A program made the translations under genes and the position numbers. The notes below the pieces were generated by a model that searched no databases, was not told the origin of the DNA, and saw only the letters and a program-made list of their open reading frames with translations. Below, in pieces: positions 1-64,000 of a stretch of 64,000 bases of DNA (the first letter of the stretch is position 1; every line of letters begins with the position of its first letter). This DNA comes from an uncultured Candidatus Saccharibacteria bacterium (lineage in GTDB: Bacteria; Patescibacteriota; Minisyncoccia; Phycocordibacterales; UBA9973): NCBI GenBank assembly GCA_964440545.1, contig CAYTSO010000002.1, forward strand, positions 8,636 through 72,635, written 5' to 3'.

Positions 1-2227
<2,227 letters not shown>

Positions 2228-54566: not shown

Positions 54567-55433
54567 ATGATAACCAAACCGTTGCTGCCGGAAGAGTCGC
54601 TGTCGCTGAAAAACGACGGAAGACTCGAGCTATTTTTCATCGGGACCGGGTCGGCCTTTGCCGAGACTCTTCATCAGACGAATTTTCTAATCGTGAAAGG
54701 CGATGTCCATATTCTGGTGGATTTCGGTATGACTGGCCCTGCGGCTCTGCGCCAGTCGGCTCGGCTCAAAGTGACCGACATCGAAGCATTGCTCCCGACT
54801 CACTCTCATGCCGACCACATTGGCGGCATTGAGGGGATCGCTCTTCTCAACAGGTATGTTGGGATTCCCTTCATGAAGAAGGAAAAGGTGAAGATGATCA
54901 TCACGGAGGATTACCAACGTATCCTTTGGGATCGGTCTCTTCGAGGGGGCCTCGAACATAACGAAGAAGAAGTCACGGAGCACAAGTTGCTTTCCTTCGG
55001 CGACTATTTCAAGATTTTTCGTCCGAGATGGAAGCAGCAGATGCCGAGGGAGATTCACGAGATCGACTTCGGCGGATTGCACATCGAAATGTTTCGCACG
55101 AAACACACCCCGGACTCCGCTCCCAGCTGGCAGGAATCTTTTGTCAGCTACGGACTTTTCATCGACGGACACGTTTTTGTGTCTGTCGATACCAGGTTCG
55201 ATCGGGAGCTTGTCGAGTTGTATGCTTCACGGTCATCAGTCATGTTCCATGACGTGCAGTTTTTCCCGGGCGGGGTGCACGCCTCGCTCGCGGATCTCAA
55301 AACACTTCCGTCCGAAGTCAAACAGAAGATGCTCCTCATGCATTATGGGGACAACTTCAGAGATCAGGACATCTCTGACTTCTCAGGTTGGACTCAGCCG
55401 GCGGTCCGGTATATCATGGACCTCTGGTCTTAG
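54567..55433 (+). CDS. metallo-beta-lactamase-fold hydrolase; GC-rich (~52%) relative to the genome
   Basis: HSHADHIGG is the HxHxDH motif. An SD AGGGAGG precedes the ATG. Confidence 0.7.
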   Translation: MITKPLLPEESLSLKNDGRLELFFIGTGSAFAETLHQTNFLIVKGDVHILVDFGMTGPAALRQSARLKVTDIEALLPTHSHADHIGGIEGIALLNRYVGIPFMKKEKVKMIITEDYQRILWDRSLRGGLEHNEEEVTEHKLLSFGDYFKIFRPRWKQQMPREIHEIDFGGLHIEMFRTKHTPDSAPSWQESFVSYGLFIDGHVFVSVDTRFDRELVELYASRSSVMFHDVQFFPGGVHASLADLKTLPSEVKQKMLLMHYGDNFRDQDISDFSGWTQPAVRYIMDLWS

Positions 55434-56119: not shown

Positions 56120-57022
56120 ATGATTACAAAAAAATTTTTATGGTTAGCTGCTTTTGTTTTTCTTGTGATTGGTTTTTTTGCCGGTCAATATTTTGGTGTT
56201 ATCCCGGTATTTGCCAGTGACAATGACCATGATGGCATGATTGACTCAAAAGACACCGATGATGACAATGACAATATTCCTGACGTAGATGATAAGTATC
56301 CATTTGATTACGATAATGATGGGATAGGTGACAAGGATGATACCGAAGACAATAGTGCCGATGAAAAAGAATTGTTGGAGGATGAAGGTGATGAAACAAG
56401 TAAAGAGGAAATTAAAGATGAAGTAAAAAAAGATGATACCGGCGGTCCCGTCTCCTCCATCACTGTTTCCGGAACTGGCAGTGCGGTAAGCTGGAAAGTG
56501 GACGGATACTCAAAAAGTGGATTTAAAATTGTTTGGTCAAAAAACAGCAAACCAACCTACCCAACCAGAGAAGGTGACAAGTATATTTACTTGTCCGATC
56601 CAAGTAGTCGAAGTACAACCCTGGATGCTTTTAGTGGATCAGGCACTTATTATGTAAGGGTTTGTGAATATCTTGGTGGCGCTTGTGGAATCTATTCGAA
56701 CCAGATAGAGGTTGGGCTAACTGGAAATGATACTAAACCAACATCTCCCGTTTCCTCCATCACTGTTTCCGGAACTGGCAGTGCGGTAAGCTGGAAAGTG
56801 GACGGATACTCAAAAAGTGGATTTAAAATTGTTTGGTCAAAAAACAGCAAACCAACCTACCCAACCAGAGAAGGTGACAAGTATATTTACTTGTCCGATC
56901 CAAGTAGTCGAAGTACAACCCTGGATGCTTTTAGTGGATCAGGCACTTATTATGTAAGGGTTTGTGAATATCTTGGTGGCGCTTGTGGAATCTATTCGAA
57001 CCAGATAGAGGTTGGGCTTTAA
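56120..57022 (+). CDS. membrane-anchored surface protein: Asp-rich Ca-binding (thrombospondin-3-like) repeats followed by two identical 91-aa beta-domains
   Basis: DNDHDGMIDSKDTDDDNDNIPDVDDKYPFDYDNDGIGDKDD, then two copies of the domain beginning PVSSITVSGTGSAVSWKVDGY. Confidence 0.6.
   Translation: MITKKFLWLAAFVFLVIGFFAGQYFGVIPVFASDNDHDGMIDSKDTDDDNDNIPDVDDKYPFDYDNDGIGDKDDTEDNSADEKELLEDEGDETSKEEIKDEVKKDDTGGPVSSITVSGTGSAVSWKVDGYSKSGFKIVWSKNSKPTYPTREGDKYIYLSDPSSRSTTLDAFSGSGTYYVRVCEYLGGACGIYSNQIEVGLTGNDTKPTSPVSSITVSGTGSAVSWKVDGYSKSGFKIVWSKNSKPTYPTREGDKYIYLSDPSSRSTTLDAFSGSGTYYVRVCEYLGGACGIYSNQIEVGL
56447..57018 (+). repeat. near-perfect tandem direct repeat, 2 units, period 300 bp, 1 mismatch over ~272 bp
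   Basis: 56447-56718 versus 56747-57018. The only mismatch is at 56452/56752. Confidence 0.85.
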
Positions 57023-58590: not shown

Positions 58591-58647
58591 TTTTTAATTT
58601 TGGGGTATATTGAAAATGAGTTTGCTATTTGACAAAAGGAGGCGCCA

Positions 58648-58953
58648 ATGCAATATATGCCGAATCCCCACATGGAAAGGGAATTTAATTGCCTCAATTG
58701 CAATCTGCTATATGAACATCACACGATCTGTGAGACATGTATATTCACTAGAAAAATCAACATCTGTGGGCAATTTTACCCCATCTCAAGTAGTGGGAAA
58801 GGAGGCGCGAATGCAGGGACGGAAAGCTTCTCTAGGAACAAGAAAGATTACAAAAAGTGCCGCCTGGTATTTTATAAGGAATGTTTTGTTAGGCAAAAGG
58901 GAGGAGGGAGAAGATGTCGAGATACGGGAGCGAGTGGAATTATCACCACTTAA
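58648..58953 (+). CDS. small Cys-rich protein. It overlaps the next gene and is possibly a frameshifted N-terminal part of an HNH-like protein.
   Basis: SD AAAGGAGGCGCC 3 nt before the ATG. Motifs CLNCN...CETC...C. A second SD+ATG copy (AAAGGAGGCGCG-AATG) at 58799-58813 lies in another frame. Confidence 0.35.
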   Translation: MQYMPNPHMEREFNCLNCNLLYEHHTICETCIFTRKINICGQFYPISSSGKGGANAGTESFSRNKKDYKKCRLVFYKECFVRQKGGGRRCRDTGASGIITT

Positions 58954-59288
58954 CGCCAAGATGTCGTGGGGGGAGGAAGGAGAAATCAAATCTCCTTCGC
59001 CTAAATAGGAGAAGGCACGAGTTTTGGCACTTTATCTTCGGCAACAGAACGTTGCCGGAGGTAATATGTCTCTTGTATCAACTAGTTAAGAAGTCAAGAC
59101 GGTGGTGGAGGCAGCTTTCTCCGCCTAAATCAAAACGTCGCAAGGAAAAAAGAAAGTGGGGGTTTTTTCAGCTGGTGACGAAGATCCATGACTACTGGTC
59201 CTTCGTCTTCGGCGACAGGACCATTGAGGAGGTGCTTAGCATTCTGGTGCGTCTCAGGAGGATAAAGATTAGTCAGGGAGCTCTTTGA
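58914..59288 (+). CDS. HNH-endonuclease-like protein with a tandemly duplicated ~35-aa module
   Basis: SD GGGAGGAGGGAG. YHHLTPRCRGGRKEKSNLLRL matches the HNH core (HH..P...GG...SNL..L). The repeats are HEFWHFIFGNRTLPEV and HDYWSFVFGDRTIEEV. Confidence 0.45.
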   Translation: MSRYGSEWNYHHLTPRCRGGRKEKSNLLRLNRRRHEFWHFIFGNRTLPEVICLLYQLVKKSRRWWRQLSPPKSKRRKEKRKWGFFQLVTKIHDYWSFVFGDRTIEEVLSILVRLRRIKISQGAL

Positions 59289-59330
59289 CACCCACCAAGG
59301 AGTTATAAGGAAGCAAAGAAGGGAGGAAAC

Positions 59331-59546
59331 ATGGAAAGTAAGTGTATAGGGTGTGACAAAAGCCTGGGGGGTGTCCAAAATGGACACACTGCAGGTGGCC
59401 TTTGCGAGGCCTGCTCCCAGAAGTATCTTGGGATGGCGGGGTTGAAGATGGCCCCGGAAGGACATTTTGAGATTAAAGAAAAGAAGACCTCAGGGGCGGC
59501 TGGAAGGTTTTTAAACTTCCTCCGAAACATAGTCGGCGGTCGCTGA
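59331..59546 (+). CDS. small zinc-ribbon protein (71 aa)
   Basis: SD GGGAGG. Motifs CIGCDK...CEAC. Followed by the terminator AGGGTGGC-TCTG-GCCACCCT plus a T-run (59566-59595). Confidence 0.45.
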   Translation: MESKCIGCDKSLGGVQNGHTAGGLCEACSQKYLGMAGLKMAPEGHFEIKEKKTSGAAGRFLNFLRNIVGGR

Positions 59547-59691
59547 CCAAAAAATATCAAATGTAAAGGGTGGCTCTGGCCACCCTTTTTCTTTTTCCCC
59601 TGTTTTACCATAAATTTGTTGACTTTGAAAATTTGTAGGATTATTGTTTGATTAATAAGTTGTTTTTTATTATTAATAATTTTTAAATAAT

Positions 59692-61296
59692 ATGAAAAGA
59701 CTTTTATCTATTGTATTTGTTTTAGTTTTTGTTTTATTTGGTTTAGCAGATAGTGCCAGGGCAAAGGTTCCTCCATTAGTAATTAATGAGATTGATTATG
59801 ACCAACCGAGCACAGACACCGCGGAATTTATTGAGTTGAAAAATGCTGGAGACGGAACAATTAACTTAGACACCTTTGAACTTCGTTTTATTAATGGTTC
59901 AGGGGGAGGAGCAGTGGTCTACAAAACTATTGATTTGCCCGATTTTGATTTAGGGTCTGGAGATCATTACGTTATTTGTGCTAATTCCGCTACGGTTGCT
60001 AACTGCGATTTAGATTCAAATCCTGACACAAATTTTATTCAAAACGGTGACCCAGATGCCATTGCTTTGTTTTCTGGGGAAACAATTATTGATACTGTGA
60101 GCTATGGAGGAGATGTTCCAGGGTATACCGAAGGATCTGGAACGATAACTGATGATGGTGGAGCTGGCCAGGACAACATGGGGATTTCTCGATACCTGGA
60201 CGGACAAGATACGGGTGATAACTCTGCCGATTTTGCTTATATGTGTATTACTCCCGGGGGTGAGAATACTTGTGATGCACCACCGGTTGATGCTGACAAT
60301 GACGGGGTTCCGGATTCAAGCGATAATTGTCCACTTGTGGCCAATGCAGATCAAGCAGATGCAGATGGCGATGGAATAGGGGATGCTTGCGATAATTGTG
60401 TGGATGTTGCCAACCCTGACCAAGCAGACGAAGACCAAAATGGGATAGGTGATGCTTGCGAGGTTCCAGTAGACACGACAGACCCTACAATTGTTTCGGC
60501 CATTAGTACAGACCCAAACACAGTTGAAGTATTATTTGATGAGGAATTGCAAAACAATCCACCAAGCTCAGACTTTTTTGATTTCAAGGCCCGTGTCGGT
60601 CATTATCCTCAAATAGACGATTTTGATGTATACAATAACAAGAGCGGAGAAGAAAGAGGCAGTCTCCTTTCTTATGGGATAGAGAGTGTTAGTTATGAAG
60701 ATAAAAAAGTAACAATTGTTCTTACAAATCCGATATTAAAAGGAGACAATCCCTGGTTGTATGTTTATCCAATAGAAAATAGTCTTGTTGATTTAGCCGG
60801 CAATTATTTTAATGGTGGAAATAGTTATAATATGGCAATTGAAGTTGAAGAAGAGGAAGAAAAATCTGACAGGCCGAGTGCCAGTGGTGGAAGATATCCT
60901 CGTTTTCCGGACCCAACAGAAATTCCTGGGTGTGGCCTAGAGACAACAGGTTTTAGCGCTATCACCGGAGAATCATGCGAAACAAATATTCCCCATGAAG
61001 AAGATCTGCTTGTTTCCCCAAATTCTCAAGAACAAGCTGGCCAGGTTCTGGGAGCAGAAAAATACGTTTTTACAATGTTTTTAAAAAGAGAACAGCCTCC
61101 GTATTCAAAAGGAATTCAGGCAAATGAAGTATTAGAATTGCAAAAATTCTTAAATAAAAATGGTTATGAAAGCGGTCCAGAGGATGGAAAATTTGGGCCG
61201 ATAACCGAAGGAGCGGTAATACGTTTTCAGTTGGCGAATGGTTTAGTGGGGGATGGAATTGTGGGTGAACTTACTCGTGCAGTGCTTAATAAATAA
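59692..61296 (+). CDS. secreted multidomain surface protein: lamin-tail domain (LTD), thrombospondin type-3 Ca-binding repeats and a C-terminal peptidoglycan-binding domain
   Basis: Signal peptide. LTD region [10 protein letters not shown]...FIELKN. TSP3 region [59 protein letters not shown]_binding_1 region [31 protein letters not shown]. Confidence 0.7.
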
Positions 61297-61330
61297 AAGA
61301 AAAAACGCCCCGACCTAGATCGGGGCGCGA
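61296..61330. terminator. bidirectional rho-independent terminator between convergent genes
   Basis: Hairpin GCCCCGA-CCTAGA-TCGGGGC flanked by A-runs and T-runs. Confidence 0.6.
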
Positions 61331-61347: not shown

Positions 61348-62583
61348 TTATTTACCGGGGATATCCTGTTCGGATACCCCGTTCTTCTCGCTCCACACGA
61401 GATAGTGGATTACCTCTCCCGGCAGGGGTGCCGGGGGGTCGTAGAACTGCGTGCCCGCGGAAGGGACAGTCGCGACCAGATTCCAGGGCCCGTCAGGAGT
61501 CAACGACCGGTAGACCAAGTATCCGTCCACAGGACCAATACCGCTGCCACACGGGACCTCAGCCGTCTGCTCTACCCAACTTCCCCCTCCCGTGTTCATC
61601 ATCAGGAGAGTCACGGGTGGCTTTTCCGTGCACACTGGTGTTAGAGGTGACGGAGAGCACGGTGTGGTCATCGTGTTCCCATAGAGGGGAACATTCTTGA
61701 CTTCTACAACGTGTTCCGTTCCGTTCACTAGACCGGTGATTTGGAGAGGAGATGTCGCATTCGGGACGATCACCCCGTTGTGCCACACTTCTGTGTGGTC
61801 CAAGCGAGGATCGTATTCACCCGGGCTCCAATTGATGTAGACGCTGGAGTTGTCAGCCCATCCCGATACCGACGGCGGATTTACATCCGCGTCCCAGTAT
61901 TCGAAGCGGTAGAGGTGGATTCCCTCTACGGCGACCGAGCTGGAACTTACGAAGTAAATCCGCAAAATCGCGGGTCCGGTTGTTGTGCACTGCCGGAGGT
62001 CCAGCGTAACCCAGGTCGTTGCCATTGACCCGGAGTACGCGGGGATACCGCGTAGTCCGGTCGGAGGTGCATCCAAACTGGTGGATGTGCTCATCGTGTA
62101 GTTGTACCCGGGGCTAAGCACTCCCCCGACCGACGTGACTTCACTCCAGCTGTCTCCTCCATTGAAAGAGACCTGGATGATGAAGCCGTCGTATCGAGGT
62201 TGCAATGCCCACGACATTTGGAAAAATGCCATGGACATCTCGCTCACTTCGAAGCTGTGACCGGAGCTCGAGCCGACCTGCAGAACGTTGTGAGACCTGA
62301 CGGGAGGATTTTGCAAATAGAACTTTCCCGTCCTGTTTTCTGAGTTCCAGACGGTAGTCCAGTCGTAGATGGTGTCCGTGTCGGACGACCATGTCTGGCA
62401 TGCCGTGTTGTTCGGGCTGGAGGAGGAGTTCTCCATCCAGCTGAAGTTGTCCTCGCAATTCGTGCTTGCGTCCGGGACGTCCGGTCTGTCCAGCGCGCAA
62501 AGGCCGACGCAGGCGAGAAGGATTGCCAAAACCACGACCAAATTATTCTTTTTCATCGGTTCCTCCGTTTTTTTATAGGACAT
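61348..62583 (-). CDS. GC-rich (~58%) secreted protein / putative lipoprotein with fibronectin-III-like and Ig-like beta domains
   Basis: Signal peptide with a lipobox-like LLAC. Composition differs sharply from the ~35% GC background. A promoter-like TTGACA...TAGATAAT lies in the upstream intergenic region. Confidence 0.6.
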   Translation of the reverse strand: MSYKKTEEPMKKNNLVVVLAILLACVGLCALDRPDVPDASTNCEDNFSWMENSSSSPNNTACQTWSSDTDTIYDWTTVWNSENRTGKFYLQNPPVRSHNVLQVGSSSGHSFEVSEMSMAFFQMSWALQPRYDGFIIQVSFNGGDSWSEVTSVGGVLSPGYNYTMSTSTSLDAPPTGLRGIPAYSGSMATTWVTLDLRQCTTTGPAILRIYFVSSSSVAVEGIHLYRFEYWDADVNPPSVSGWADNSSVYINWSPGEYDPRLDHTEVWHNGVIVPNATSPLQITGLVNGTEHVVEVKNVPLYGNTMTTPCSPSPLTPVCTEKPPVTLLMMNTGGGSWVEQTAEVPCGSGIGPVDGYLVYRSLTPDGPWNLVATVPSAGTQFYDPPAPLPGEVIHYLVWSEKNGVSEQDIPGK

Positions 62584-62942
62584 CTCTAATGGACACGCAC
62601 TGTGCGGTCTATAGGATGTCCTTTATTTTGAAGAACTATATTTTCAACGAAGCCTTAACGGACTTCGTGGCATTATTGTATTACAAAGCACAACAAATGT
62701 CAATACTAAAAAAATACAAATAATTTATTTATAAACATAAGGGCTTGACATTTTTTTGACAATAGTAGATAATGCAAGCTAGATAAGTTCTAAAGACAAA
62801 GCCATAAAAAACTAACAAATAGTGGCATAAAGTGTCTTTATTCTTTTGTTTATAAGTTTATTATTAAAGGTCAAAATTAATTATTAGTTAATACAATCCC
62901 GGCAGTAGAGCAGAGCTCACTACGGGACAAGAAAAAAATATA

Positions 62943-64000
62943 TGAAAAAGTTTAAAAATATATTTCGTGGTTTATTGGTCGTAGCGCTTGCTTGTGCAAG
63001 TATTTTGCTTCCTACTGGAGCAGTTTTTGCTGCCGACAATGAAAGCATTTCTTTGCCGGGTTTTGACGTTCGCGGAATGGTGAATGACGGAGCAGACATT
63101 TTTGCTTCTCCCTTCAACAGCCCCCCAATGGTTTTAACCGTTGACATACCTAGCGACAGTTTCGATGGTCACACAATTATGACCGGAGATGGTGTTTACG
63201 GTATGTTTTTTGCCGGTGATTATCTTTACGTCGCTGCCGGCCTAGGAGAGAGTTTGGACAAGAGTGCCCTCGTAGAAGAAAAGGGTGTTCTTCCAACCTT
63301 TATCAATTCTGGTGGATTACAGGTTTTTGATAGAAACATGGACAGTGTTTCTCCTTTCTATGGTTACCCGGATTACACTTATAGCAAGGTTGTTGTAAAT
63401 AGTGACGGAGTAGCTTTTGTGGCTTATTTAGATGAGTCCTGGAATCCATGGATGGAAGCAGTTTCCTATGCTGACCCTTCCAATCCAACTTCTCTTTCTG
63501 ACACAAATCTGCTTGCCTCTTCTGTTGTTGATATTGTAGATGCTTCTATTTCTGGAAATTATGCCTATGTGGCTATTGGTGAAGGTGAAGGAGGATCAGT
63601 AAATATTGTGGATATCTCTAATCCTGTCGAGGTTTCTGATTTTAGAGAAGGAGCTCCTTCTGGTATTTATGTGGTTGGAGTTTACCCAACCTCATCAGGT
63701 GTTACTTCTGTTACTGCCAACGGAACCATGATGTATGTCGGCCATGACAGCGAGGTAGACGTAGTGGACGTTTCTAATCCAGCTAGCCCGGTGTTTTTGT
63801 CAACCATTTCTACTGGCGCATTGGTAAATGACTTAGCGGTAGATGATAGTTATCTTTATGTTGCCAACGTAGATGGCTTAAAGATTTATTCTGCCTCAGC
63901 ATCAGTGCCTACATTTGTTGAAAGAGTTACTCCTGTCTTGGATACTCCGGTAGGAGAATTTCTTGCCCCCACAGAAGGTACAGCTGTATCTTTAGATGGA
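62943..64000 (+). CDS. secreted LVIVD-repeat (beta-propeller) protein. It is not in the supplied ORF track because no stop codon falls inside the window.
   Basis: Frame open from the ATG at 62943 to the window end. Signal peptide MKKFKNIFRGLLVVALACASILLPTGAVFA. Repeats YAYVAIGEGEGGSVNIVDISNP, MYVGHDSEVDVVDVSNP and LYVANVDGLKIYSAS. Confidence 0.65.

What the first reader, a model, noticed from the sequence alone, without database searches (positions are those of the whole stretch)
61348..62583. Strongly GC-rich (~58%) secreted lipoprotein-like gene: foreign island
This is the sharpest compositional outlier in the window. The 411-aa protein has a signal peptide and lipobox-like LLAC, and is Ser/Thr/Pro/Trp-rich with FN3/Ig-like beta domains. 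The flanking terminator is shared with the convergent surface protein gene. It is likely a recently transferred adhesin or host-interaction factor.
Basis: partly seen in the sequence, partly recalled or inferred. Interest (0 to 1): 0.6.

Follow-up and report, generated by a model that had tools for sequence, protein, structure and literature searches.

The report
Anciently GC-rich, hairpin-dense secreted protein gene
The GC-rich gene is real but is not a recent import: it is an old, vertically inherited secreted-protein gene of Nomurabacteria-like candidate-phyla bacteria that keeps about 55% GC and an unusually hairpin-rich messenger RNA in every relative examined, whatever the GC content of the host genome.

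Summary
ORF 61348..62583(-) is 56% GC (GC3 69%) in a 38% GC window, with sharp edges at the gene ends. The interpretation as a recently transferred island does not hold.

- **Family-wide trait.** All 11 distinct relatives found (28-80% aa identity) are 51-58% GC, inside contigs of 34-50% GC.
- **Conserved neighbour.** In every relative whose upstream flank could be read, the gene sits divergently next to an LVIVD-repeat cell-wall-anchored surface protein gene. Synteny with Candidatus Nomurabacteria/Paceibacterota genomes is extended.
- **GC is maintained, not left over.** Synonymous sites are saturated between members. The substitution process still points to a GC3 equilibrium near 0.6, against about 0.26 in the adjacent gene. 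dN/dS is 0.11-0.17.
- **The protein.** It has a Sec signal peptide whose lipobox Cys is not conserved, a MAM/lectin-like jelly-roll domain and two FN3-like domains. It matches no Pfam family.
- **Unexpected extra.** The coding RNA folds 13-29% more stably than synonymous-codon shuffles (z -3.5 to -10.6). It carries about twice the expected number of perfect local hairpins, mainly on the sense strand. Neighbouring genes, E. coli genes and GC-rich pWW0 genes do not show this.

Best reading: long-term selection for a heavily base-paired mRNA keeps the GC high. The reason for that selection is unknown.

The parts
61348..62556 (-). Coding sequence, 402 aa plus stop, of the GC-rich secreted protein. 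Layout: signal peptide, jelly-roll (MAM/lectin-like) domain at about residues 31-225, FN3-like domain at about 226-300, and a second FN3-like domain at about 305-400 that contains the invariant QTAEVPCG motif.
   Evidence: ORF and translation. Identical to P0001. Family alignment with invariant Cys, Trp and motifs. dN/dS 0.11-0.17. AF2 model with pLDDT 72, and 80-90 in the N-terminal domain. Foldseek PDB hits to Endo-D, Epf adhesin and MAM-Ig-FN. The profile hits FN3 arrays over positions 220-390.
62557..62583 (-). This stretch is more likely 5' UTR and holds the GGAGG ribosome-binding site at 62562-62566.
   Evidence: Sequence. Homologues start at the equivalent of M10, each with GGAGG 5-8 nt upstream.
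62557..62668 (-). Inferred 5' UTR of about 110 nt. It has a stem-loop (AGGACATC...GATGTCCT with an inner CGCAC/GTGCG) just upstream of the RBS. Every homologue has a hairpin before the RBS, but with different sequences.
   Evidence: Upstream regions compared across 11 loci. The transcription start site is inferred from the promoter position, not measured.
62675..62703 (-). Near-consensus sigma-70-type promoter of the GC-rich gene: TTGACA, 17 nt, TACAAT.
   Evidence: Scan gives 11 of 12 matches. The same element is conserved in the Nomurabacteria-like loci.
62745..62773 (+). Back-to-back near-consensus promoter (TTGACA, 17 nt, GATAAT) of the divergent LVIVD gene.
   Evidence: Scan gives 11 of 12 matches. 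Conserved block in related loci.
62942..64000 (+). Divergent partner gene, running off the window end. It encodes a signal peptide plus an LVIVD-repeat (beta-propeller) surface protein. Full-length orthologues end in PG_binding_1 or SLH cell-wall anchors.
   Evidence: Pfam LVIVD, 40 bits. Orthologues seen. Host-like GC4 of 0.25.
61305..61328 (-). Intrinsic terminator hairpin (10 pairs, 7 G-C) followed by a T-run on the minus strand. It lies between the two convergent stop codons.
62204..62239 (-). Strongest in-CDS hairpin of the window copy: a 16-bp uninterrupted stem (G-U allowed) with a 4-nt loop, at CDS nt 318-353, encoding EMSMAFFQMSWAL.
59692..61296 (+). Convergent neighbour: a surface protein with LTD, thrombospondin type-3 repeats and PG_binding_1. 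It is not conserved at this position in relatives.
   Evidence: Pfam. Different convergent neighbours in L001, L007 and L008.

Best explanation
**What it is.** This is a vertically inherited gene of Nomurabacteria-like Paceibacteria (candidate phyla radiation). It encodes a Sec-secreted, cysteine-containing, all-beta protein made of a MAM/lectin-like jelly-roll and two FN3-like domains. The protein has no wall-anchoring domain of its own.

**How it is expressed.** It is transcribed from a near-consensus promoter, back-to-back with the gene for an LVIVD beta-propeller protein that is anchored to the cell wall (PG_binding_1 or SLH). The two products most likely act together at the cell surface as a binding or adhesion module. 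This partnership is inferred from conserved pairing only.

**Why it is GC-rich.** The GC-richness is not a trace of recent transfer. It is an equilibrium state held for far longer than the turnover time of synonymous sites.
- About 7 of the 19 GC points over the window average come from amino-acid composition (rich in W, T, P, S and C; poor in K, E and I).
- About 11 points come from G/C-ending codons.

**Most likely cause.** Selection acts on the messenger RNA itself. The coding region is packed with local stem-loops well beyond what its protein sequence, codon usage and local composition predict. G+C is kept high because it stabilises this folding. The individual hairpins largely turn over between lineages, while their density is kept.

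**What such folding would do (inferred).** It would protect and prolong the life of the transcript, or pace its translation and export.

**Shown versus inferred.**
- Shown: conservation, synteny, saturation of synonymous sites, GC-favouring substitution pattern, purifying selection on the protein, and excess sense-strand structure.
- Inferred: that structure is the selected trait, its benefit, and the partnership with the LVIVD protein.
For: **Family-wide GC.** Eleven distinct members are 51-58% GC (GC3 0.55-0.71) in flanks of 34-50% GC.

**Pairing and synteny.** The gene pairs divergently with an LVIVD gene in every locus with a readable upstream flank, including 28% and 35% identity members in otherwise different contexts. 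Synteny with L008, L001 and L007 is extended.

**Substitution pattern.**
- Four-fold-site identity between members is about 0.26-0.37, against about 0.26 expected at random.
- dS is at least 1 even for the closest pairs, and dN/dS is 0.11-0.17.
- Polarised synonymous changes give a W>S rate per site of 0.52 against S>W of 0.34, implying a GC3 equilibrium of about 0.6.
- The adjacent LVIVD gene gives 0.22 against 0.62.

**Codon usage.**
- Expected GC with host codon usage is 45%, against 57% observed.
- The pattern is unlike EF-Tu and ribosomal-protein genes of the same genome, which have GC3 0.32-0.46 against 0.61.

**RNA structure.**
- MFE against whole-gene synonymous shuffles gives z -5.2 to -9.9.
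- Against local synonymous shuffles it gives z -3.5 to -10.6, with ratios 1.13-1.29, in 8 of 8 members.
- Dinucleotide-shuffle mean z is -2.0 to -3.9 on the sense strand and weaker on the antisense strand.
- The strand folding gives z -4.47 and -3.84 for the two gene halves, against -1.23 and +2.12 for the flanking genes.

**Hairpin counts (stem of at least 8).**
- 75 observed against 33 expected with sense G-U allowed.
- 16 against 2.5 with Watson-Crick pairs only.
- 62 against 38.8 with antisense G-U allowed.

**Controls.**
- 38 other window ORFs have mean z -0.6.
- 13 E. coli genes have ratios 0.96-1.14, and their hairpin count is 32 against 37.7 expected.
- 15 pWW0 genes of 51-73% GC have ratios 0.98-1.08, and their hairpin count is 46 against 45.6 expected.

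**Hairpin conservation.** Hairpins are somewhat better conserved than chance hairpins in the neighbour gene (28/48 against 39/102). Synonymous sites in stems are 0.67 identical against 0.60 outside. One hairpin region shows covariation: 68% paired against 52.6+-4.1, and 0 of 500 shuffles reach it.

**Protein fold and expression signals.** Fold. Promoter, UTR and terminator.
Against: **No family-wide consensus structure.** RNAalifold on the codon alignment gives z -1.0.

**Hairpin positions coincide no more than density predicts.** Coincidence of hairpin centres between deep lineages is about what hairpin density alone predicts: 23 observed against about 25 after scaling.

**No pair-preserving bias.** Substitutions at predicted pairs are no more pair-preserving than in the control gene: 54% against 55% for single transitions, and 51% against 47% in strong stems. 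Selection on individual pairs is therefore weak or undetectable, and a process that generates hairpins is not excluded.

**The signature may not be specific to this gene's function.** An unrelated Apyc1-like gene in the same window shows the same GC-plus-hairpin signature.

**GC excess is not confined to stems.** Unpaired third positions are still 50% GC.

**Missing data.** There are no expression, half-life or localisation data. The LVIVD partnership rests on gene order only. The AF2 model is poor for the third domain.
Confidence: 0.5

Rival explanations
1. A locus-specific mutational or repair process, not selection, makes the gene GC-rich and hairpin-dense. Examples are template-switch (quasi-palindrome) mutation that writes perfect inverted repeats, combined with GC-biased gene conversion at a recombination-prone surface-protein gene. 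The hairpins would then be by-products that decay neutrally.
For: Many stems are perfect Watson-Crick copies of 10-16 bp (16 observed against 2.5 expected). Hairpins sit in different registers or positions in different lineages. Substitutions show no pair-preserving bias. The protein evolves faster than its neighbours, at 46-61% against 70-89% identity. Unpaired third positions are also GC-enriched.
Against: The adjacent genes, a few hundred bases away, show neither trait. Hairpin enrichment is stronger for sense-strand G-U than for antisense (2.27x against 1.60x; in the Apyc1-like gene 3.3x against 1.07x), which points to RNA rather than DNA. Stems are slightly more conserved than non-stem sites. 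Amino-acid differences do not cluster in stems. No GC or AT skew is seen. No paralogous donor cassettes exist in the window.
Confidence: 0.2
2. Old horizontal acquisition followed by slow or incomplete amelioration. An ancestor of these lineages took the gene from a roughly 55% GC donor, and the composition simply has not decayed yet.
For: The codon usage looks like that of a generic 55% GC genome, with both C- and G-ending codons raised. One family member sits in a 50% GC genome, so moderately GC-rich hosts exist. In some triplets S>W changes outnumber W>S in raw counts, 50 against 25.
Against: Synonymous sites are saturated between members, and dS is at least 1 even within the closest cluster. 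Yet GC3 stays 0.55-0.71 in all 11 lineages with no clear relation to host GC of 34-50%. Per-site W>S exceeds S>W, the opposite of the neighbouring gene. The Apyc1-like gene shows what amelioration looks like: 54.5% GC in one CPR genome and 44.8% in another. This rival does not explain the structure excess.
Confidence: 0.1
3. One reading: a recently transferred foreign island carrying an adhesin or host-interaction factor.
For: A sharp GC step at the gene ends and non-host codon usage. A secreted beta-rich protein. The convergent side of the locus is variable between relatives.
Against: The gene is present with the same neighbour and promoter in sister genomes and in deep relatives. The best non-self hit is only 53-54% identical, and all hits lie in similar AT-rich contexts. 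There are no mobility genes or repeats at the edges. There are no viral-contig relatives.
Confidence: 0.03
4. Translational selection in a very highly expressed gene. The G/C-ending codons would be the preferred codons of abundant proteins in these organisms.
For: A near-consensus promoter, a strong RBS and a structured 5' UTR suggest high expression. There is a strong preference for C over T at two-fold pyrimidine-ending codons.
Against: EF-Tu and ten ribosomal-protein genes in the genome of a family member use AT-ending codons: GC3 0.32-0.46, C/(C+T) 0.21-0.42 and G/(G+A) 0.18-0.39, against 0.61, 0.65 and 0.57 in the family gene. The equally well-promoted LVIVD partner has GC4 0.25. G-ending codons for Lys, Glu and Gln are also raised, which tRNA adaptation does not predict.
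Confidence: 0.05

Closest known systems
Surface or extracellular proteins built from a MAM/concanavalin-like jelly-roll followed by Ig/FN3 domains. Examples are the MAM-Ig-FN ectodomains of PTPRK/PTPmu, the meprin MAM domain, the Epf adhesin of Streptococcus pyogenes, and the accessory beta-sandwich domains of GH85 Endo-D/Endo-A.
   Same: The predicted fold order, a jelly-roll followed by FN3-like sandwiches, matches these by Foldseek (E 7e-7 to 1e-3). The profile search matches FN3 arrays in giant surface proteins over residues 220-390. The protein is secreted, contains Cys and has an Asp-box-like SxDxGxTW motif.
   Different: Sequence identity is about 10% and whole-chain TM-scores are low, at 0.2-0.3. 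There is no Pfam hit at E<=1. There is no catalytic or anchoring domain. The family is restricted, in these databases, to CPR-like contigs, with about 15-20 clusters at 50% identity.
Horizontally acquired genomic islands detected as compositional outliers
   Same: A discrete block with deviant GC and codon usage and sharp boundaries.
   Different: It is a single gene with no mobility functions. It is syntenic and present in sister and deep relatives. Synonymous sites are saturated, yet the composition is retained. Islands are usually expected to ameliorate.
Coding sequences under selection for high RNA secondary structure (Katz and Burge 2003, recalled from memory; Gebert, Jehn and Rosenkranz 2019, PMC6544989)
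   Same: The native arrangement of synonymous codons gives more stable folding than shuffled arrangements. That paper reports this as widespread for a subset of ORFs (abstract).
   Different: Here the effect is large, 13-29% against a median of about 2-4% in controls. It is shared by a whole gene family. It is coupled to a GC content held near 55% independently of genome GC, as is usual for structural RNAs rather than mRNAs.
The vls antigenic-variation locus of Borrelia burgdorferi, a GC-rich surface-protein locus in an AT-rich genome (recalled from memory, not checked here)
   Same: A surface-protein gene that stays far more GC-rich than its AT-rich genome over evolutionary time.
   Different: No silent cassettes or partial copies exist in the 64-kb window. 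There is no GC skew. The protein is unrelated.
Rickettsia palindromic elements inserted in-frame in protein genes (recalled from memory)
   Same: Palindromic, hairpin-forming DNA inside coding sequence that is translated.
   Different: The hairpins here are short (stems of 8-16 bp) and each has its own sequence. They are not copies of a repeat family. The gene has no other match in the window.

Membership tests
Recently acquired genomic island (HGT) | Composition and codon usage deviate from the host | tested here: met
   56% against 38% GC, GC3 0.69 against about 0.32, z about 6.
Recently acquired genomic island (HGT) | Absent from the same locus in sister genomes | tested here: not met
   Present next to the LVIVD gene in L001, L002/L007, L003, L004, L005 and L008, and in the deep relatives L016 and L024.
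Recently acquired genomic island (HGT) | Flanked by mobility genes, a tRNA or direct repeats | tested here: not met
   Flanks are surface-protein genes, promoters and a terminator. The gene has no repeats elsewhere in the window. The nearest credible tRNAs are about 10 kb away.
Recently acquired genomic island (HGT) | Closer relatives in a donor lineage of matching composition | tested here: not met
   The best non-self hits are 53-54% identical and sit in AT-rich CPR-like contigs. None were found in viral contigs. The genomic context of several distant representatives (P0009-P0012, P0015, P0018) could not be fetched.
Bacterial lipoprotein (SPase II substrate) | Lipobox with an invariant Cys at +1 after the h-region | tested here: not met
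   The window copy has ILLA-C, which fits the pattern. The Cys is absent or misplaced in most homologues, which instead end the h-region with AxA/FG-type sites. No dedicated predictor was available.
FN3 domain-containing protein | Match to the fn3 sequence model or fold | tested here: inconclusive
   Pfam fn3 does not reach E<=1. However, the family profile hits hundreds of multi-FN3 proteins over positions 220-390. AF2 gives a beta-sandwich with pLDDT of about 80 for residues 226-295, but only 40-70 for the last domain.
MAM / concanavalin-like lectin domain | Sequence or fold match to MAM or legume-lectin-like jelly-rolls | tested here: inconclusive
Conserved structured RNA family (Rfam-type element overlapping the CDS) | A consensus secondary structure shared in register across members, with covariation | tested here: not met
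   RNAalifold consensus is -6.1 kcal/mol, z -1.0 against codon-column shuffles. There is no Rfam hit. Only regional conservation is seen, for example the DNSS hairpin.
CDS under selection for high mRNA structure | Native folding more stable than synonymous-codon permutations, beyond matched controls | tested here: met
   z -3.5 to -10.6 in 8 of 8 members, against about 0 for neighbours and -3.1 to +1.1 for the GC-matched controls, apart from E. coli secY at -6.1. Tool z values are -4.5 and -3.8.
CDS under selection for high mRNA structure | Pair-preserving substitution bias or reduced synonymous rate in stems | tested here: inconclusive
   No pair-preserving bias: 54% against 55%, and 51% against 47%. 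There is a weak excess of conserved hairpins (28/48 against 39/102, p=0.02) and of synonymous identity in stems (0.67 against 0.60, p=0.04, with non-independent counts).

The most novel reading that the evidence does not exclude
The transcript behaves like a structural RNA that also codes for a protein. Its G+C stays near 55% whatever the genome's GC (34-50%), and hairpin density rather than hairpin identity is conserved. The same signature appears in an unrelated Apyc1-like cyclic-nucleotide phosphodiesterase gene.

This would define a class of 'armoured' mRNAs in candidate-phyla bacteria. They would be selected to survive conditions in which single-stranded, AU-rich RNA is destroyed, for example toxin or defence-activated collateral ribonucleases during phage attack.

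Alternatively, the signature could reveal a gene-targeted mutational mechanism that writes hairpins and favours GC.
Probability: 0.2. Interest if true: 0.8.

Novelty: new variant of a known kind. Interest (0 to 1): 0.62.

Why it matters
**A clean counter-example to a common rule.** A sharp GC outlier is usually read as recent horizontal transfer. Here the outlier state is older than the turnover of synonymous sites and is actively maintained.

**A tractable case of selection at silent sites.** It is a natural case, replicated across a family, of strong selection or bias at silent sites in organisms with tiny genomes and AT-biased mutation. Two adjacent genes driven by equally good promoters have opposite substitution equilibria: GC3 about 0.6 against about 0.26.

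**Possible consequences if the hairpin-dense mRNA is functional.** It points to post-transcriptional control of surface-protein production in uncultivated CPR bacteria. It also suggests a simple sequence signature, GC excess plus sense-strand hairpin excess, for finding other such genes.

**A new protein family and pairing.** The work defines an uncharacterised secreted protein family and its conserved pairing with LVIVD wall-anchored proteins. This pair is a candidate cell-surface module for episymbiotic attachment.

Tried and rejected
- **Pfam, NCBIfam and Rfam searches of the gene.** No family reached threshold.
- **Silent cassettes or paralogues in the window (vls-like idea).** None found by tblastn or blastn.
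- **Viral origin.** No relatives in IMG/VR.
- **Family-wide consensus RNA structure.** Not supported by RNAalifold. Positional coincidence of hairpins between deep lineages is explained by their density.
- **Pair-preserving substitution bias.** Not detected.
- **Much faster synonymous evolution than neighbouring genes.** This looked true only against the codon-biased LVIVD gene. Other neighbours are also near saturation.
- **Translational-selection codon pattern.** Rejected against EF-Tu and ribosomal-protein genes.
- **Artefact of GC-richness in the shuffle tests.** Rejected with E. coli and pWW0 controls.
- **Gene-tree against neighbour-tree conflict as a sign of allele exchange.** Identities are compatible with vertical descent and give no clear conflict.
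- **Metagenome scan with the wider alignment.** It failed for lack of conserved stretches.
- **First attempt at the orthologue comparison.** It timed out.
Full report
**1. The observation**

The ORF at 61348..62583 on the minus strand is real.
- Its G+C is 56.2%, with GC by codon position 51/49/69%. The window as a whole is 38.1% GC.
- Among all 1236-nt windows it lies 6.1 standard deviations above the rest, whose maximum is 48%.
- In 200-nt steps GC rises at about 61300 and falls at about 62590, exactly at the gene ends.
- The probable start is the second ATG, at 62556. GGAGG lies 6 nt upstream, and the product is 402 aa, identical to an NCBI-derived database protein.
- The protein is enriched in Trp, Thr, Cys, Pro and Ser and depleted in Lys, Glu and Ile.

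**2. It is not a recent import**

*Distribution of the family.*
- A search of 5.8 billion proteins found only six relatives, at 41-53% identity.
- A profile search of 1.8 billion representatives found some 15-20 full-length family clusters. The remaining hits were FN3 arrays matching the C-terminal half.
- I fetched DNA for every member I could.
- All eleven distinct members are 51-58% GC with GC3 0.55-0.71. Their contigs are 34-43% GC, and one is 50%.
- Two members come from named genomes: Candidatus Nomurabacteria GW2011_GWB1_40_7 and a Candidatus Paceibacterota MAG.

*Gene neighbourhood.*
- In every locus with readable flanks the gene is divergently paired with a gene for a signal-peptide protein with LVIVD repeats. 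That protein ends in a PG_binding_1 or SLH wall anchor.
- This holds for the 28% and 35% identity members, whose wider neighbourhoods differ. One lies next to the EF-Tu/ribosomal-protein operon.
- Between the window and the Paceibacterota MAG several further genes are syntenic.
- Three relatives share the order GH130, cupin, HAD, cytidylyltransferase, SIMPL, CAP, LVIVD, this gene.
- The recurrence in independent assemblies also rules out a chimera.

**3. The GC is maintained**

- At four-fold sites in codons for conserved residues, identity between members is 0.24-0.37 for most pairs. The random expectation is 0.26.
- Nei-Gojobori dS is at least about 1 even for the closest pairs and saturated for the window copy. 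dN/dS is 0.11-0.17, as expected for a real protein under purifying selection.
- Neighbouring genes are also close to synonymous saturation between the same genomes. A composition inherited from a donor would therefore have decayed.
- Synonymous changes polarised with an outgroup give per-site rates of 0.52 for AT>GC and 0.34 for GC>AT. This implies an equilibrium GC3 near 0.6.
- The same calculation on the adjacent LVIVD gene gives 0.22 and 0.62, an equilibrium near 0.26.
- Amino-acid composition accounts for 38% to 45% GC, and codon choice for 45% to 57%.
- Both C- and G-ending codons are favoured.
- In a genome where EF-Tu and ten ribosomal-protein genes lie beside a family member, those genes use AT-ending codons. 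This is therefore not the codon usage of highly expressed genes.
- The Apyc1-like gene described in section 7 is a useful contrast. It is GC-rich in two CPR genomes but nearly host-like in a third, which is what amelioration looks like.

**4. The protein**

- Further features are invariant cysteines, an Asp-box-like SxDxGxTW motif, a DNSS motif and an invariant QTAEVPCG motif.
- AlphaFold2 on the seven-sequence alignment gives pLDDT 72 overall: 80-90 for residues 31-225, about 80 for 226-295, and poor for the last domain.
- Foldseek against the PDB matches jelly-roll plus Ig/FN3 architectures. These include GH85 Endo-D/Endo-A accessory domains, the Epf adhesin, MAM-Ig-FN of PTPRK/PTPmu, meprin and neuropilin MAM domains, Emp46p and reelin. 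E-values are 7e-7 to 3e-3, at about 10% identity.
- There is no Pfam match.
- The protein has no anchor of its own.
- I infer from the conserved pairing that it works with the wall-anchored LVIVD propeller as a surface binding module.

**5. Expression signals**

- A near-consensus promoter, TTGACA-17-TACAAT, lies at 62703-62675 on the minus strand.
- It stands back-to-back with TTGACA-17-GATAAT at 62745-62773 for the LVIVD gene. Both are conserved in the related loci.
- The inferred 5' UTR of about 110 nt carries a stem-loop just before the RBS in every member, with different sequences.
- A GC-rich terminator hairpin at 61305-61328 lies between the convergent stop codons.

**6. The unexpected feature: a hairpin-dense coding RNA**

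*Folding energy against shuffles.*

| Test | Family genes |
|---|---|
| Synonymous codons permuted gene-wide (120-nt windows) | z -5.2 to -9.9, seven members |
| Permutation confined to 180-nt blocks (keeps protein, codon usage, periodicity and local composition) | z -3.5 to -10.6; native energies 13-29% lower; eight members |
| Local dinucleotide shuffles | mean z -2.0 to -3.9 sense, -1.3 to -3.1 antisense |
| strand folding on the two halves of the window gene | z -4.47 and -3.84 |

*Controls.*

| Control set | Result |
|---|---|
| Flanking genes, strand folding | z -1.23 and +2.12 |
| 38 other ORFs of the window | mean z -0.6 |
| 13 E. coli genes (47-53% GC) | ratios 0.96-1.14 |
| 15 pWW0 genes (51-73% GC) | ratios 0.98-1.08 |
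| Two genes of the 50% GC relative | z +0.8 and -0.7 |

Among the 38 window ORFs there is one exception, a recombinase ORF that overlaps a tRNA and a 120-nt inverted repeat.

*Hairpin counts.* The excess consists of local stem-loops with uninterrupted stems of 8-16 bp and loops of 3-10 nt.

| Set (stems of at least 8 bp) | Observed | Expected from shuffles |
|---|---|---|
| Ten family members, sense G-U allowed | 75 | 33 |
| Ten family members, Watson-Crick only | 16 | 2.5 |
| Ten family members, antisense G-U allowed | 62 | 38.8 |
| E. coli genes | 32 | 37.7 |
| pWW0 genes | 46 | 45.6 |

The stronger enrichment with sense G-U points to the mRNA strand.

**7. How conserved the structure is, and the same signature in a second gene**

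*Conservation of the structure.*
- It is not conserved in register across the family. RNAalifold on the codon alignment finds almost nothing (z -1.0).
- Coincidences of hairpin centres between deep lineages are about what hairpin density predicts.
- Some regions carry a hairpin in most members, but with different partners. At the DNSS motif the Ser-Ser codons switch between TCC-AGC, AGT-TCA and AGC-TCG, together with the complementary downstream codons, in at least four registers.
- For the commonest register the pair-count tool gives 68% paired cells against 52.6+-4.1, and a covariation score of 0.44 against 0.21. None of 500 shuffles reaches this.
- Between close orthologues, substitutions at predicted pairs are no more pair-preserving than in the LVIVD control.
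- Strong hairpins are conserved somewhat more often (28/48 against 39/102). Synonymous sites in stems are slightly more conserved (0.67 against 0.60).
- Third positions are 71% GC where paired and 50% where unpaired.

*The second gene.*
- The same GC-plus-hairpin signature is present in an unrelated Apyc1-like MBL-fold gene in the window and in one other CPR genome.
- Both traits are absent together in a third genome.

**8. Interpretation**

*Well supported:*
- The gene is an old, vertically inherited, functional protein gene.
- Its GC-richness is an actively maintained state.
- Its mRNA is unusually rich in local structure.

*Best mechanistic reading (inference, about even odds):* hairpin density in the mRNA is the selected trait, and high G+C serves it. 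A G+C held near 55% irrespective of genome GC is the behaviour of structural RNAs. The benefit is unknown. Transcript protection or longevity, or pacing of translation and secretion, are the obvious candidates.

*Main rival:* a gene-specific process that generates hairpins and favours GC, such as template switching plus biased conversion. It fits the perfect stems and the lack of pair-preserving substitutions. It does not fit the sense-strand bias or the normality of genes a few hundred bases away.

*Other rivals:* slow amelioration, recent transfer and translational selection are each contradicted by specific tests.

**9. Verdict**

The 'recent foreign island' interpretation is not supported, while the protein description is broadly right.
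- The finding is more interesting than proposed, for a different reason. It is a family-wide, long-maintained compositional and RNA-structural anomaly in CPR bacteria.
- I rate it a new variant of known kinds: structure-selected coding sequences, and jelly-roll plus FN3 surface proteins.
- Interest is about 0.6. The cause of the anomaly is unresolved.

Noticed in passing
window 54567..55433 (+): A second single-gene GC outlier: 52% GC, GC3 66%. It encodes an Apyc1-like MBL-fold phosphodiesterase (PF23023, 121 bits). It is absent from the syntenic place in L008. It has over 1600 homologues at 60-72% identity across several phyla, so it is a better candidate for real horizontal transfer. It also shows excess sense-strand hairpins (13 against 4.0 expected) and folding z of -4.3 and -6.4. 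It is GC-rich and structured in L020 but neither in L022.
   Followed up: partly
window 58600-59560: A 45-51% GC module of three or four short ORFs, each behind a GGAGG site. They include a 124-aa protein with an internally duplicated H..WH..FGxRT motif and a 71-aa CxxC protein. The module is bracketed by two terminator-like hairpins, has no Pfam hits, and is not present at the corresponding place in L008.
   Followed up: partly
window 716-835 and 2249-2368 (with ORF 548..2227 - and tRNA-Ser 632-719 +): A perfect 120-nt inverted repeat brackets a large serine recombinase gene that abuts tRNA-Ser. The ORF's 3' end reads through the repeat and the tRNA. This is possibly an invertible or integrated element. 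The ORF gave z -9 in the RNA-structure scan, probably because of the repeat and the tRNA.
   Followed up: partly
window 56446-57018 (inside gene 56120..57022 +): A 300-nt unit repeated 1.9 times at 99% identity. This is a very recent tandem duplication of an FN3-like domain in a secreted protein. The orthologue in L008 has two diverged copies.
   Followed up: partly
window 59888-59982 (+): ARAGORN calls a 95-nt tRNA-Cys (anticodon aca) inside the coding sequence of the LTD/TSP3/PG_binding_1 protein. Rfam does not call it. It is probably a false positive.
   Followed up: no
window 62675-62773; also L001, L003-L008, L013 upstream regions: Two near-consensus sigma-70-type promoters stand back-to-back about 40 nt apart and are conserved almost base for base across relatives, while the surrounding intergenic DNA varies. 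The 5' UTRs fall into at least two types: GGACAT-repeat hairpins, and a TCCCTCTGAGAGAGGGA hairpin.
   Followed up: partly
L020 6985-7836 (+): In the Paceibacterota contig that carries the GC-rich Apyc1-like gene, the next gene downstream (283 aa, faint FA_hydroxylase hit) is also GC-rich, at 52-55% against a 44.5% background.
   Followed up: no
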